Shown: positions 2,337 through 12,827 of the stretch, piece by piece
Layout of the letters: each line of letters opens with the position of its first letter
Numbering within the stretch: the stretch's first letter is position 1
Assembly: GCA_963664705.1 (NCBI GenBank)
Contig: OY761556.1
Span: 1,536,001-1,600,000, forward strand
Length of the DNA stretch: 64,000 bases
Reading direction: 5' to 3'
Source of the DNA: Acidobacteriota bacterium
GTDB lineage: Bacteria; Acidobacteriota; UBA6911
Program-made: the position numbers and the translations under genes
Notes under the pieces: model-generated
The model's input: the letters and a program-made list of their open reading frames with translations, nothing else
Databases searched by the model: none
What the model was told of the DNA's origin: nothing

Positions 2337-2359
2337 TGAGCGGGAGTAATTCAGCGGTA
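2337..2359 (+). repeat. att site (left): 23-bp direct repeat TGAGCGGGAGTAATTCAGCGGTA = 5' end of tRNA-Gly
   Basis: Identical to 12750-12772, which overlaps the first 20 nt of the intact tRNA-Gly; lies ~240 bp upstream of the integrase. Confidence 0.93.
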
Positions 2360-2487
2360 TTTGTCCACCCCAGCAAGCAAAAATAATCAAAAACAATAAA
2401 ACATAGATAAATCCTGCTGTTTACGCGGGTGCGGGGATGCCTCTCTTTTTTGTTCTCTGCTTAAAATTGCGCTTTTTCATTCTTTTT

Positions 2488-2598
2488 TGTTGCGGTATTG
2501 GTGCGACGGAGTAATAGTAATTTCGGCTGGGTGATAATTAATTCAAATTTTACACCCTAATTTCTAGCAGTCGCACCAGTCGCACCAATACCGCAACA
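2488..2598. repeat. 20-bp perfect inverted repeat (TGTTGCGGTATTGGTGCGAC / GTCGCACCAATACCGCAACA), likely integrase arm-type sites
   Basis: Arms at 2488-2507 and 2579-2598; related copy TGTTGCGAAATTGGTGCGA at 12683-12701 near the other att. Confidence 0.75.
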
Positions 2599-2602
2599 GA
2601 CT

Positions 2603-3700
2603 ATGAAAATTGCCCTACGATCCAGACCGACTACGATACGTGGCAAACGAAGCCTGTACCTTGATTTTTACGACAACGGCAGGCGCTGGTATGAAAGCCT
2701 GGGCTTATACACGATCGGCGATCGTGAGGCGGATAAACAGACAAAACGGCTTGCAGAAACTATCCTCAGCCAGCGGCGGCTTGATGCTGCATCGACTAAC
2801 AACGCGCTGCCAGCGCCATCACGATCAAAAGCCGATTTTGTGGAATTCTGCCGGAAGATCGGAGAGGAAAAGCCTTCGGAGAATACCCAGCTTGTTTGGA
2901 AAAACACCATTTCCCATTTAAAAGCCTTCGCGGGGGAACATGGAATTACGCTCGGGGCCATCAATGAAGCTTTTCTGGAAAGATTCCGCGACTACCTTTT
3001 GACGAAGGTGAGCCCGAATACAGCGCTCACCTATTTTTCCAGAATAAAGACAGCCTGCAGGAAAGCGGCGAATGAGCAAATCATCCCGCGTTATGTCGGA
3101 AGCGGTATCACGATCAGAAAACAGCAGACTAACCGCGCATACTTGACACTTGAGGAACTGCAAAAGCTCGAACGGACTCCAAGCGCAAACCAGGCGGTAA
3201 GGGATGGCTTCCTGTTCTCATGTTTTGCAGGATTGCGATATAGCGACGTAAAAGCGCTGACCTGGGATCAGGTAAGGCGAGAGGGAAATCATTCGTTCTT
3301 GTGGTTCTCACAAGAGAAAACAGGGGATTTTCAATCACTCCCGCTATCTCACCAGGCGCTTGAAATTCTGAACGCGCAGCAAAAGGCAAAACCTTCGCCG
3401 AAGATCCGGCAGGAAATTGGGAAAGACATTATTTTCAAGCTTCCTGCTCAGCAGACTGTGGACAAGGCTTTGAAGCGCTGGGCGAAGCGGGCCGGGATAG
3501 AAAAAACCGTTAGTTTTCATGTGGGCCGTCATACCTTCGCAACACTGGCGCTCACCTATGGTGCGGATCTTTACGTTGTTTCAAAGCTGCTCGGGCATCG
3601 GCGGATAGAGACAACGGAAATATATGCAAAAGTCGTGGATAAATCCAAGCGGGATGCAGTTACACTTCTGCCAAAGCTCAAACGAGCGCCGAAAAAATAA
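2603..3700 (+). CDS. int: Tyrosine recombinase / site-specific integrase
   Basis: Catalytic motifs GLRYSD, FHVGRHTFAT, LLGH and TEIY; N-terminal arm-binding-like SLYLDFY segment; next to att. Confidence 0.96.
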   Translation: MKIALRSRPTTIRGKRSLYLDFYDNGRRWYESLGLYTIGDREADKQTKRLAETILSQRRLDAASTNNALPAPSRSKADFVEFCRKIGEEKPSENTQLVWKNTISHLKAFAGEHGITLGAINEAFLERFRDYLLTKVSPNTALTYFSRIKTACRKAANEQIIPRYVGSGITIRKQQTNRAYLTLEELQKLERTPSANQAVRDGFLFSCFAGLRYSDVKALTWDQVRREGNHSFLWFSQEKTGDFQSLPLSHQALEILNAQQKAKPSPKIRQEIGKDIIFKLPAQQTVDKALKRWAKRAGIEKTVSFHVGRHTFATLALTYGADLYVVSKLLGHRRIETTEIYAKVVDKSKRDAVTLLPKLKRAPKK

Positions 3701-3929
3701 AGCCGATAGTCTTTAGATCCTTCACAGATATATCCAAAAAATATCAAATATCCTATAAATGTGTCTGATTAAACAGAACACCTAAAAATATTTGTGTAGC
3801 GCTGACAGCCTTTATTTATAAGGGTTTAGTGGCGATATAGGGGGGTGTCTTACAAGATAGGACATAGTTTTTTTATTTGCCCATCTTTAATCTACTACTC
3901 GGCTGTTGTTGTTATTAGGAGATTCCAAA

Positions 3930-4217
3930 ATGACCAATCGTGAAATTGCCGAAAAATTAGAGAGCATAGAATCTAAGCTTTCCGATCTGACCAAGGCCTC
4001 AGAAAAACCCTTTGATTTGGCGGCGGCTGCGGACTATCTGAAGATGAGCAGAAGCCACTTATATCAATTGACCTGCCGAGGAATAATAGCGCACTACAAG
4101 CCAGGCGGAAAGCGAATCTACTTTGAAAAATGTGATTTGGATGAATACGTGCGGCGGAACCGTATCAGATCGCAATTCGAATTGGAATCTGAAGCTGCCA
4201 ACCGGATATCGGCTTAA
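3930..4217 (+). CDS. Excisionase/AlpA-like helix-turn-helix DNA-binding protein
   Basis: AAADYLKMSRSHLYQL...IAHYKPGGKRIYF pattern of excisionase-family HTHs; AGGAG RBS before ATG 3930. Confidence 0.85.
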   Translation: MTNREIAEKLESIESKLSDLTKASEKPFDLAAAADYLKMSRSHLYQLTCRGIIAHYKPGGKRIYFEKCDLDEYVRRNRIRSQFELESEAANRISA

Positions 4218-4229
4218 GAAGGCTTCCCA

Positions 4230-11186: not shown

Positions 11187-11348
11187 CTACACTTCTTTTT
11201 CTTCGAAGCCGCACAATCGCGCGGCGCATTCCACCACGGTTTCTATATCCTTTTCCTGAAGCGCGGCCTTCATGCGGGCCAGGATGGCTTCGCGGGCCTT
11301 TCCCATTTCAATCAGTACCTCCACCAAGGGGCGTCTATCTTCGCTCAT
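11187..11348 (-). CDS. Small hypothetical protein (53 aa, MSEDRRPLVEVLIEMGK...), not in the ORF track
   Basis: ATG immediately follows the TAA of the upstream minus-strand ORF; read manually to a TAG at 11187. Confidence 0.5.
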   Translation of the reverse strand: MSEDRRPLVEVLIEMGKAREAILARMKAALQEKDIETVVECAARLCGFEEKEV

Positions 11349-11672
11349 TTAGCATCCTGTCCTGACGAAGTGCGTTATTCGGCTCACAGCAATCAATGCA
11401 TTTAATCCCTTTTCGGCCTTTGTGGACGCGGCAGGATTGAAGGCGCTCTGGAATTGTGACGGCCACAAGTGCAAGAACGATAGGGCATCCCGCTGGGCTG
11501 CGGAGATTCTAAGCAGCGCGCGCGATCGCGCGTAAGCATCTACCTTAGTTGGGCTCATTCCGGCAGCTTGTACCGTGAGGCCCGTAATATCAGTTTCGAA
11601 GTCTTCGACTCTGAAGGCTGCAGGATTGCGAAGAATCGCATTCTGAACTTTTAAAAGTAATCGGGTATTCAT
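11349..11672 (-). CDS. Hypothetical protein (MNTRLLLKVQ...)
   Basis: GGAGG RBS before ATG at 11672; upstream TTGACA..CAAGAT promoter-like sequence on the minus strand. Confidence 0.65.
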   Translation of the reverse strand: MNTRLLLKVQNAILRNPAAFRVEDFETDITGLTVQAAGMSPTKVDAYARSRALLRISAAQRDALSFLHLWPSQFQSAFNPAASTKAEKGLNALIAVSRITHFVRTGC

Positions 11673-11719
11673 TTTTGGTATTCCTCCGGATGTACCGAAG
11701 GCACGCGGGTATATAATGC

Positions 11720-11794
11720 GGACGGCGCGCTGCGTGCCCAAATCACGCGGTTCGCTAGGCCCTGGTGGGTGTTAGTAGCACTCCCAGGGCCGCC
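11720..11794 (+). ncRNA. Candidate cis-antisense/structured RNA (SymR-like hairpin)
   Basis: Hairpin GGCCCTGGTGGGTGTTAGTAGCACTCCCAGGGCC downstream of a + strand TATAAT at ~11712, overlapping the leader of the minus-strand gene. Confidence 0.4.
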
Positions 11795-11950
11795 AATCCC
11801 TACCATCTTGTTTGCTTGGGCCTGATTTTGTCAAGCTGGATACGTCCGATTTGTGCCCGCCATCACATTTTTCGTGCATAGCGGGAACAAGATGTTCCGA
11901 TATAATAAGCGGCATTCCTTAGCCCAATACGACCGTAAAGGAGGAAGCTT

Positions 11951-12562
11951 ATGTTCTGCCAGAAATGTGGGAAAGAGATTCCTGACCAATCGACCTTTTG
12001 CAATCATTGCGGCAATAAGAGCACGGATAATGCGGAAAAGAGCCAGAAGAAGAGCAGAAGCAGCGTTCTCCCCTGGGTACTTGTTCTTATTCTGGCAACT
12101 GCAGTGGTTGCGCTATGGCTCACAAGCGGAACAGTAAAGAAATCAGAGCCGGAAACGGCTGCTATGTCACAGGCAACTAAAGTGAGGGAACAAGTTTTTA
12201 TTCCGAAAGAAGATTCCCTTATTTCGGGAACCATAAACATTCCAGCTGGGAAGATACATGAAGCCCGAATCTTGATATCGGAAAAGATGCGCAATCCCAG
12301 GATAGTGGGCCATTTCAGCGCTTCCGGTGGATCGGGCAACGATGTTCAAGTGGTTCTCACGGATGAAGACAATTTCGTTAATTGGAAGAACGGGCACCAG
12401 GGCCGGGCTTTGTATAATACCGATAAGATTACCCAGGACTCAATTAACGCCAGAATTCCAGGGCCTGGAATTTACTATTTAGCCTTTAGTAATTCCTTTT
12501 CGACATTCACTGAAAAGCAGGTTACTGCAGACATCAAGCTGAAGTACGAAATTCTTCAATAG
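11951..12562 (+). CDS. Zinc-ribbon membrane protein
   Basis: MFCQKCG...FCNHCG zinc ribbon, one TM helix, beta-rich C-terminal domain; AAGGAGG RBS. Confidence 0.85.
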   Translation: MFCQKCGKEIPDQSTFCNHCGNKSTDNAEKSQKKSRSSVLPWVLVLILATAVVALWLTSGTVKKSEPETAAMSQATKVREQVFIPKEDSLISGTINIPAGKIHEARILISEKMRNPRIVGHFSASGGSGNDVQVVLTDEDNFVNWKNGHQGRALYNTDKITQDSINARIPGPGIYYLAFSNSFSTFTEKQVTADIKLKYEILQ

Positions 12563-12752
12563 AGAGATTAAACGGGTAAGCTCTTGAAAAAAAATCCGTT
12601 CCAGGATAAATTGTTGCCCGTGATGAGCACGAAAGAGCAACGGGCAATTCGGAATGGCAACCCCATACACCAGAATTTGACTTGTTGCGAAATTGGTGCG
12701 AATAGGAAATTGCAAAAACAGTAAGTCTATCAATTTCAATAAGATAGATTGA

Positions 12753-12827
12753 GCGGGAGTAATTCAGCGGTAGAATGCCAGCTTCCCAAGCTGGACGTCG
12801 CCGGTTCGATCCCGGTCTCCCGCTCCA
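12753..12827 (+). tRNA. tRNA-Gly (anticodon CCC)
   Basis: Acceptor stem GCGGGAG/CTCCCGC, anticodon arm CCAGC-TTCCCAA-GCTGG, T-loop GGTTCGATCCC, encoded CCA end. Confidence 0.98.

What the first reader, a model, noticed from the sequence alone, without database searches (positions are those of the whole stretch)
2337..12772. Candidate phage satellite that carries its own tail tape measure protein
Seen: a 10.4 kb element with intact 23-bp att repeats and a co-oriented gene run of int, xis/AlpA-like HTH, rep, scaffold-like protein, two ORFs, cos-like gap, TerS-like gene, Zn-finger and a full-length TMP. All ORFs are uninterrupted and most have good RBSs. No TerL, portal, capsid, tail tube, tail chaperone, tail tip or lysis gene is recognisable. 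Known: Gram-negative PICIs have this size and int-alpA-rep layout and use TerS homologues (Rpp) to redirect packaging; cf-PICIs encode heads and take helper tails. I know of no described satellite family whose only large virion gene is a TMP. Inference: the element may intervene in head assembly, packaging and tail assembly of a long-tailed helper phage.
Basis: partly seen in the sequence, partly recalled or inferred. Interest (0 to 1): 0.92.

Follow-up and report, generated by a model that had tools for sequence, protein, structure and literature searches.

The report
Acidobacterial phage satellite with tape measure
A 10.4-kb island at a glycine tRNA gene carries integration, replication and DNA-packaging-recognition genes plus a phage tail-length protein, but no recognisable capsid, packaging motor or tail tube; similar islands occur in other Acidobacteria, so it is likely a parasite that would borrow a lambda-like phage's particle, a strategy recently reported in other bacteria.

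Summary
Observation confirmed. Window 2337-12772 lies between exact 23-bp repeats (5' end of tRNA-Gly) and carries intact int, xis, rep, TerS and a 952-aa TMP. No TerL, portal, capsid, tube or tail chaperone was found.

The closest TMP and TerS belong to a full lambda-like phage (G500), which meets half of the refutation test. The other half fails. Three other att-bounded elements (10.2, 17.4, 18.4 kb) carry this TMP clade without capsid, portal or tube. One shares the terS-TMP-three-small-gene block, at a different tRNA and with a different integrase.

The element shares a cos-like motif with these phages. Its scaffold-like gene holds three copies of a motif that phage protease/scaffolds carry once, and lies upstream of cos-terS, which a simple deletion would not give.

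Best reading: a PICI-like satellite of G500-type phages (about 0.72). Mobilisation is not shown. TMP-encoding satellites are already in print (PLE, EPIP, F5, some cf-PICIs), and this scan has noted similar layouts on other DNA. It is a new variant, not a new kind.

The parts
2337..2359 (+). Left att core: copy of 3 bp upstream plus the first 20 nt of tRNA-Gly(CCC)
2488..2598 (.). 20-bp perfect inverted repeat (2488-2507 / 2579-2598); likely integrase arm-type sites (inferred)
   Evidence: with up to 3 mismatches the motif occurs 4 times in the genome, 3 of them beside the two att sites
2603..3700 (+). Tyrosine integrase, 365 aa, with arm-binding, SAM-like and catalytic domains
   Evidence: catalytic motifs located
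3930..4217 (+). Excisionase-family HTH protein, 95 aa
   Evidence: PF12728 1.5e-11; TIGR01764 above cut-off
4230..5087 (+). Likely replication initiator, 285 aa; C-terminal 72 aa 57% identical to the rep of element G549-B
   Evidence: phrog_3992 1.3e-08; DUF1376 below cut-off
5229..6047 (+). Scaffold-like protein o4, 272 aa: novel N-terminal part plus three copies of the C-terminal motif of phage S49 protease/scaffolds; no S49 domain
6058..6486 (+). ORF o5, 142 aa, no family; in the position of coiled-coil genes of related elements but not shown homologous
6487..6857 (+). Two small ORFs (63 and 60 aa), no family, no relative in the 303 loci held
7084..7121 (+). cos-like motif: 7-bp block, 18-bp spacer, GC-rich block; the second block begins 93 bp before the terS start
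7202..7753 (+). Full-length small terminase of the lambda Nu1 type, 183 aa
   Evidence: phrog_57 1.9e-19; 49% over 164 aa to G500 TerS; 48% over 189 columns to G021 TerS
7781..7975 (+). Small Cys/His protein, 64 aa; a 42% identical relative lies in the resident prophage
8002..10860 (+). Tape measure protein, 952 aa, with an 82-aa internal duplication
10866..11141 (+). o11, 91 aa with a hydrophobic N-terminus; shared with element L005 in the same position
11187..11348 (-). o12, 53 aa; shared with L005
11349..11672 (-). o13, 107 aa, no known family; 12 database relatives; in the DNA held it occurs only inside small TMP-bearing elements
11951..12562 (+). Cargo: zinc ribbon, hydrophobic segment, GOLD-like domain, 203 aa
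12683..12701 (+). Third copy (2 mismatches) of the arm-like motif
12750..12827 (+). Right att core (12750-12772) overlapping the intact tRNA-Gly(CCC) gene (12753-12827)

Best explanation
It is an intact, tRNA-integrated 10.4-kb element with its own integrase, likely replicon, cos-like site, small terminase, scaffold-like protein and tape measure protein, and it most likely lives as a PICI-like satellite of G500/G021-type lambda-like tailed phages of Acidobacteriota. Inferred cycle: (1) Int/Xis would excise a 10,413-bp circle and Rep would copy it. (2) Its full-length TerS would bring the helper's TerL to its own cos. (3) o4, with three copies of the phage scaffold's C-terminal motif, would compete with the helper's scaffold, CpmB/Rcm-style, and probably yield small heads. 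(4) Its TMP would be loaded by the helper's tail chaperones into hybrid tails, as shown for PLEs. The TMP is nearly the helper's length (952 vs 967 aa), so its use is probably specificity, such as escaping a block on the helper's TMP or making tails that suit the small heads, rather than a new tail length. Shown: gene content, att repeats, motif sharing, related elements. Not shown: any step of excision, packaging or particle assembly.
For: Independent elements carry the same TMP clade with no hit to capsid, portal or tube of the closest phage: L005 (47-bp att at tRNA-Glu, spacing 10,208), G549-A (40-bp att at tRNA-Arg, 18,432) and G549-B (46-bp att at tRNA-Gln, 17,419). There is also a contig-truncated one (G1024) and a circular 10.05-kb contig with protease-capsid, TMP and serine recombinase (L090). 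L005 shares terS-TMP-o11-o12-o13 with the window but has another integrase position and tRNA. In the window, L005 and G549-A the scaffold/S49 gene lies before cos-terS; in G500 and G021 it lies after terS-terL-portal. The cos-like motif with its fixed 18-bp spacer is in the window, L005, G549-A, G500 and G021. o4 has 2 full-length relatives (65%, 58%); all 3 hold three motif copies against one copy in 4 of 4 phage proteins. Pairwise dN/dS is 0.17-0.20 for the window TMP and 0.10-0.22 for o11-o13. 14 intact ORFs cover 85% of the element.
Against: The closest TMP (58%) and TerS (49%) are in a full phage with the head-tail module between them, and the window TMP is sister to that phage's TMP (100/99). 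A clade of window plus L005 TMPs is rejected (p-AU 1.8e-05), so these elements do not descend from one TMP-bearing ancestor without exchange. Most TMP contexts read were full phages or prophage fragments: 12 of 14, plus G021, G500, G1079 and G1159. Synonymous sites are near saturation (pS 0.68-0.75), so dN/dS cannot separate selection in the element from earlier selection in a phage. The resident prophage is a poor helper match and no G500-type capsid, tube or chaperone gene was found in the host genome. o5 is not shown homologous to the coiled-coil genes of the other elements (hhalign probability 3%). Gene sets differ between elements (TerL and chaperones in G549-B; tail-tip gene in both G549 elements).
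Confidence: 0.72

Rival explanations
1. A decayed (cryptic) lambda-like prophage: large deletions removed the head, tail-tube, tail-tip and lysis genes, and the rest is recent debris. The other small elements would be separate deletions of the same kind.
For: TMP, TerS and cos are closest to a complete phage; element TMPs are scattered among phage TMPs (6 changes, 235 of 500 shuffles as low); gene sets vary between elements.
Against: The scaffold-like gene sits upstream of cos-terS and has lost the protease domain while gaining three motif copies, conserved in 2 other sequences. No gene stumps lie between terS and TMP (27- and 26-bp gaps). Both att cores and the arm-like sites are intact. o11-o13 are shared with L005 and were not found in any full-phage stretch among the 303 loci held. 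G500 shares no int or rep with the element.
Confidence: 0.17
2. An integrative anti-phage island: TerS, o4 and TMP act only as decoys that poison packaging, head and tail assembly of incoming G500-type phages, and the element is rarely or never packaged.
For: The phage-derived genes are exactly those that can act as dominant-negative competitors. Tail-assembly interference is a described defence (PMC11364771, PMC10884400: search listing and abstract start only; Rta in PMC12987554). Small unknown ORFs flank the TMP.
Against: A conserved cos-like site and a replication gene are needed for packaging, not for poisoning. No PADLOC hit in 9 element proteins scanned. The TMP is full length. Interference and mobilisation usually go together in satellites.
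Confidence: 0.11

Closest known systems
Gram-negative PICIs (EcCICFT073 type; SatelliteFinder PMC10085698 and PMC9026076, passages read)
   Same: About 10 kb (PICI median 9.5 kb), order integrase - regulator - replication - capsid modifier - cos - TerS-like gene, lambda-like cos helper.
   Different: Carries a TMP, and tail genes are 'forbidden' in the PICI model. TerS is full length (183 aa) whereas Rpps are about 135-154 aa. The HTH is excisionase-type and the rep is an initiator-type protein, not a primase-helicase.
PLEs of Vibrio cholerae (PMC12987554; section 8 and passages read)
   Same: Capsid-less satellite with its own TMP; hybrid tails shown by Western blot and mass spectrometry, the working model here.
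   Different: PLEs also encode a tail chaperone (PLE11 also a baseplate hub), parasitise the lytic myovirus ICP1, and their TMP is about 20% identical to the helper's; here no chaperone, a likely temperate siphophage helper and 58% identity to a phage TMP.
EPIPs of Mycolicibacterium (PMC12822802, preprint, whole main text read; supplement not read)
   Same: About 11 kb, TerS plus TMP plus (in some) a scaffolding protein, stated to lack capsid, tail and holin genes.
   Different: Serine integrase, head-to-tail adaptor and stopper, actinobacterial host, tails much longer than the helper's. No phage-collection record covers 80% of the window TMP (best 26%).
F5/SUSP1 satellites of E. coli (bioRxiv 10.64898/2026.10.15.759431, passages read)
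   Same: About 12 kb; the structural genes are a TMP and a baseplate protein.
   Different: No terminase or capsid-related gene and almost never a replication gene; here TerS, cos, scaffold-like gene and rep are present and no baseplate gene.
SaPI CpmB / Rcm capsid-size switchers (PMC12409344, passages read)
   Same: Helical scaffold mimic that shares motifs with the helper's scaffold; the analogue for o4.
   Different: No sequence link was tested; o4 derives from the C-terminus of an S49 protease/scaffold and repeats the motif three times.
Lambda-like phages G500 and G021 (unnamed records)
   Same: TMP 58% and 42%, TerS 49% and 48%, cos-like motif, scaffold C-terminal motif; G500 also shares the 82-aa TMP duplication.
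   Different: They encode TerL, portal, protease, decoration, capsid, tube and chaperones; G500 shares no int, rep or o11-o13 with the element.

Membership tests
PICI (SatelliteFinder definition) | Integrase with att-bounded chromosomal insertion | tested here: met
PICI (SatelliteFinder definition) | Regulator homologous to AlpA, MerR or Stl | tested here: inconclusive
   HTH_17/excisionase hit, no AlpA hit; SatelliteFinder's own profiles not run
PICI (SatelliteFinder definition) | Primase-replicase module | tested here: inconclusive
   one initiator-like gene, phrog_3992 1.3e-08; no primase or helicase hit
PICI (SatelliteFinder definition) | Capsid-morphogenesis gene | tested here: inconclusive
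   o4 carries scaffold motifs but hits no library family
PICI (SatelliteFinder definition) | Small terminase homologue | tested here: met
   phrog_57 1.9e-19
PICI (SatelliteFinder definition) | No tail or holin genes inside the element | tested here: not met
   952-aa TMP inside the att sites; tail profiles are forbidden components, though clusters with one such gene can be rescued
PICI (SatelliteFinder definition) | Induction and packaging by a helper phage | not testable with these tools
   needs cultures or virion DNA
PLE | tmp with tail assembly chaperone gene | tested here: not met
   no hit with chaperones of G500; only a weak minus-strand 15-aa hit (E 0.012) with one resident-prophage chaperone; PLE proteins themselves not used as queries
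EPIP | TerS, TMP and scaffold-type gene without capsid | tested here: met
EPIP | Serine integrase, head-to-tail adaptor and stopper | tested here: not met
   tyrosine integrase; no adaptor or stopper family hit among 16 ORFs
cf-PICI | Own capsid, portal, TerL and head-tail genes | tested here: not met
F5/SUSP1 satellite | Tail-module gene with no packaging marker | tested here: not met
   TerS present; definition
Complete lambda-like prophage | TerL, portal, capsid, tail tube, lysis genes | tested here: not met

The most novel reading that the evidence does not exclude
An undescribed family of acidobacterial satellites that takes over all three assembly lines of a lambda-like phage with one gene each: TerS for packaging, a triple-motif scaffold mimic for small heads, and a lone TMP for tails. 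It repeatedly refreshes its TMP from the helper lineage, and uses the conserved o11-o13 cassette to block the helper's TMP while sparing its own.
Probability: 0.3. Interest if true: 0.78.

Novelty: new variant of a known kind. Interest (0 to 1): 0.55.

Why it matters
Satellite finders treat tail genes as a sign of a prophage, so PICI-like elements with a TMP are likely under-counted. This case gives a sharp test of why satellites keep their own tape measure. A candidate helper lineage is identifiable, the TMP is 58% identical to it and of nearly the same length, and no chaperone accompanies it. So any advantage should lie in specificity, not tail length. The triple scaffold motif is a testable new design of capsid-size switcher. 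It also extends candidate satellites to Acidobacteriota: a search for papers holding 'phage satellite', 'tape measure' and 'Acidobacteri' together found none.

Tried and rejected
Excision in reads: contigs of 5 runs and raw reads of 1 showed no attL-attR joint. The raw-read run laid 0 reads and contigs drop rare forms, so this is no test. No RNA holder was listed.

Resident prophage as helper: considered and down-weighted. It spans about 5,126,107-5,171,127 with a 33-bp att. Its TerS has no blastp hit to the element's at E<=1, its TMP is 27% identical over 185 aa, and its cos-like core differs. Not excluded.

The o4 model was low confidence (pLDDT 57, pTM 0.27, three helix pairs) and had no fold match at E<=0.001 in the PDB library. 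No structure was obtained for o13.

o5 and o13: no usable Atlas hit. The deep search for o5 had not finished. o5 versus the coiled-coil alignment gave probability 3%.

Scans of viral contigs with o13 and o4 found no relative. The cos-pattern scan gave 5 stretches: G500, two further phages with the motif before terS-terL, and two not resembling this module.

Genome searches with the TMP: strong matches in 1 of 150 other genomes, 0 of 400, 2 of 301, 1 of 136; 5 of 401 at E<=1e-60. The samples overlap. No phage or plasmid record covers 80% of the TMP.

Promoter and terminator scans were at chance level (8 vs 8.3; 19 vs 15.6). No clear iterons in rep. P0004, P0078 and P0014 were labelled as element-borne only because of matching contig lengths with o13 relatives or cluster membership; they were left unlabelled. 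Two long-branch rows (G1079, L172) were dropped before the clade tests.
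Full report
An exact 23-bp repeat lies at 2337-2359 and 12750-12772; these are its only copies in the 6.9-Mb genome, with about 3e-5 such pairs expected by chance in 64 kb. It is the 5' end of tRNA-Gly(CCC), whose intact copy is at 12753-12827. A 19-20-bp motif occurs twice in inverted orientation inside the left end and once inside the right end, and only once elsewhere in the genome at up to 3 mismatches; I read these as integrase arm sites (inference). 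Fourteen intact ORFs cover 85% of the element: tyrosine integrase, excisionase-type HTH, a likely initiator, o4, o5, two small ORFs, a 344-bp gap, TerS, a Cys/His protein, a 952-aa TMP, o11, two minus-strand ORFs (o12, o13) and a membrane cargo gene. None of 16 ORFs scanned hit TerL, portal, capsid, tube or holin families, and 8 structural proteins of the closest phage found only a 34-aa scaffold tail. The host is Acidobacteriota by inference: a same-genus genome (G021) encodes a TMP that a source labels Acidobacteria.

Closest relatives. The TMP has 76 database relatives. The closest (58%) is in G500, a 41.8-kb phage record with terS, terL, portal, S49 protease/scaffold, decoration, capsid, tube, chaperones and TMP. 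G021 holds a similar prophage (TMP 42%, TerS 48%). The window TMP is sister to G500's (99 in a 72-row FastTree; 100/99 in a 15-row IQ-TREE). An 82-aa duplication is found in 5 of 72 TMPs: window, G500, P0002, P0004 and P0078. Twelve of 14 further contexts printed were full phages or fragments of them, read from ORF lists and hits to G500 proteins, as were G1079 and G1159.

Independent small elements. The second half of the test fails. L005 is bounded by a 47-bp repeat at tRNA-Glu, spacing 10,208 bp. It reads xis, two initiator-like genes, an ORF, S49 protease/scaffold, coiled-coil gene, gap, TerS, TMP, o11, o12, o13 and an integrase at the far end. G549 holds two more. A (40-bp repeat at the 5' end of tRNA-Arg, 18.4 kb) has rep, TMP, S49 gene, coiled-coil gene, TerS, a tail-tip gene, o13 and two integrases. 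B (46-bp repeat at tRNA-Gln, 17.4 kb) has chaperones, TMP, TerS, TerL, rep, a tail-tip gene and two integrases. None of the three hits capsid, portal or tube. G1024 has a truncated element with int, rep-like gene, coiled-coil gene and TMP at tRNA-Arg. L090 is a circular 10.05-kb contig with protease-capsid, TMP and a serine recombinase. o13 has 12 relatives. Among 301 relatives of L005's host it was found in 2 genomes, each time inside such an element, and it was not found in any full-phage stretch among the 303 loci held. Two o13 relatives share a longest-contig length with TMP hits (33,899 and 10,645 bp), a hint only, since those contigs could not be read.

Signs against simple decay. In G500 and G021 the protease/scaffold gene lies after terS-terL-portal; in the window, L005 and G549-A the scaffold or S49 gene lies before cos-terS. 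A deletion between terS and TMP would not give that order. o4 lacks the S49 domain, has 2 full-length relatives at 65% and 58%, and all three carry three copies of the C-terminal motif that 4 of 4 phage proteins carry once. A low-confidence model shows three helix pairs there. Pairwise dN/dS is 0.17-0.20 for the window TMP and 0.10-0.22 for o11-o13, but synonymous sites are near saturation and the values cannot be assigned to the element's own branch.

Packaging site. The gap holds AGGTACT, 18 bases, then GC(R)GGT(RM)CGGCG at 7084-7121. The same motif with the same spacer precedes terS in G500, G021, L005 and G549-A, and the exact pattern occurs once in the host genome. The second block starts 93 bp before terS. 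Lambda-like cos sites have a 7-bp cosQ and a 12-bp cosN (PMC4669245, passages), and the TerS or rpp start lies at bp 89 in N15 and bp 102 in PICI-C (PMC9026076, passages). Calling these blocks cosQ and cosN rests on that arrangement and on my recall of the lambda site; the cut was not located. The TerS is 183 aa and aligns with G500's over 164 aa at 49%. Rpps are shorter and are proposed to lack the TerL-binding end (PMC9026076), so a substitute TerS is the likelier mode here. L005's TerS is only 123 aa.

Helper. The host has a complete-looking 45-kb lambdoid prophage at tRNA-Leu. Its TerS shows no blastp similarity to the element's, its TMP is 27% identical over 185 aa and its cos-like core differs. 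No G500-type capsid, tube or chaperone gene was found in the genome. The helper is therefore more likely an incoming G500/G021-type phage (inference).

How it most likely works. After helper infection the element would excise and replicate, its TerS would bring helper TerL to its cos, and o4 would outcompete the helper scaffold. SaPI CpmB replaces its helper's scaffold in this way and Rcm is proposed to (PMC12409344, passages). The TMP would enter hybrid tails with helper chaperones, as shown for PLE11 (PMC12987554, section 8). A clade of window plus L005 TMPs is rejected (p-AU 1.8e-05), as is window plus P0078 and P0002 (p-AU 0.009). So either satellites refresh the TMP from their helper lineage while keeping o11-o13, or similar elements arose more than once. 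With 952 versus 967 aa, tail length would barely change, which points to specificity. All of these steps are inferred. I put this at 0.72, decay at 0.17 and a decoy-only defence island at 0.11.

Comparison with what is known. It works like a PICI but does not pass the PICI model as written, because tail genes are forbidden there (PMC10085698, passages). TMP-bearing satellites are in print: PLEs and some cf-PICIs (PMC12987554, passages and legend of Extended Data Fig. 10; figure not seen), EPIPs with TerS, TMP and scaffold in 11 kb (PMC12822802, main text; supplement not read and may bear on gene content), and F5 with TMP and baseplate (bioRxiv 10.64898/2026.10.15.759431, passages; supplements closed). 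Six paper searches returned no description of this acidobacterial group; the library lacks most subscription journals. This scan has earlier notes on similar TerS-plus-TMP islands in other genomes; they are unchecked AI notes, and none matched this TMP by sequence.

Verdict: a real, intact element and a credible satellite; a new variant of a recently recognised kind. Interest 0.55.

Noticed in passing
window 12783-16917: Two partial copies of the 3' end of tRNA-Gly(CCC) at about 14836-14866 and 16846-16917 mark two further small islands stacked after the tRNA. The first holds a Gp49/RelE-like gene with an HTH partner and a pRiA4b ORF-3-like gene, the second an RCC1-repeat gene. The tRNA is thus used at both ends.
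   Followed up: partly
G000:C1:5126107-5171127: Complete-looking 45-kb lambdoid prophage at tRNA-Leu with a 33-bp att, outside the window.
   Followed up: partly
window 21418-28990: Glycyl-radical cluster: a (2S)-3-sulfopropanediol dehydratase above the NCBIfam cut-off, an activating enzyme and a second glycyl-radical enzyme.
   Followed up: no
window 31142-42667: Very long ORF (3841 aa) with DUF11-type repeats in its first part.
   Followed up: no
G549:C15:90005-108476 and 365333-382797: Two capsid-less elements in one contig, each with two integrases, a TMP and a tail-tip gene of about 840 aa; one also has TerL and tail chaperones. The S49 protein of the first ends in a repeated aromatic-rich tail unlike the phage motif.
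   Followed up: partly
L090:1-10179: Circular 10.05-kb contig with fused protease-capsid, TMP, serine recombinase and rep-like gene, no portal or TerL hit; its terminal repeat begins with part of the same cos-like block.
   Followed up: partly
protein hits: Several relatives of TMP, o4 and o13 lie on contigs of 10-11 kb (for example 10,551, 10,612, 10,645, 10,157, 10,777 bp), the size of the element; they may be excised forms or mere fragments.
   Followed up: no
run X5 on window 1000-14500: A second study holds near-identical short pieces of both the element and its flanks.
   Followed up: no
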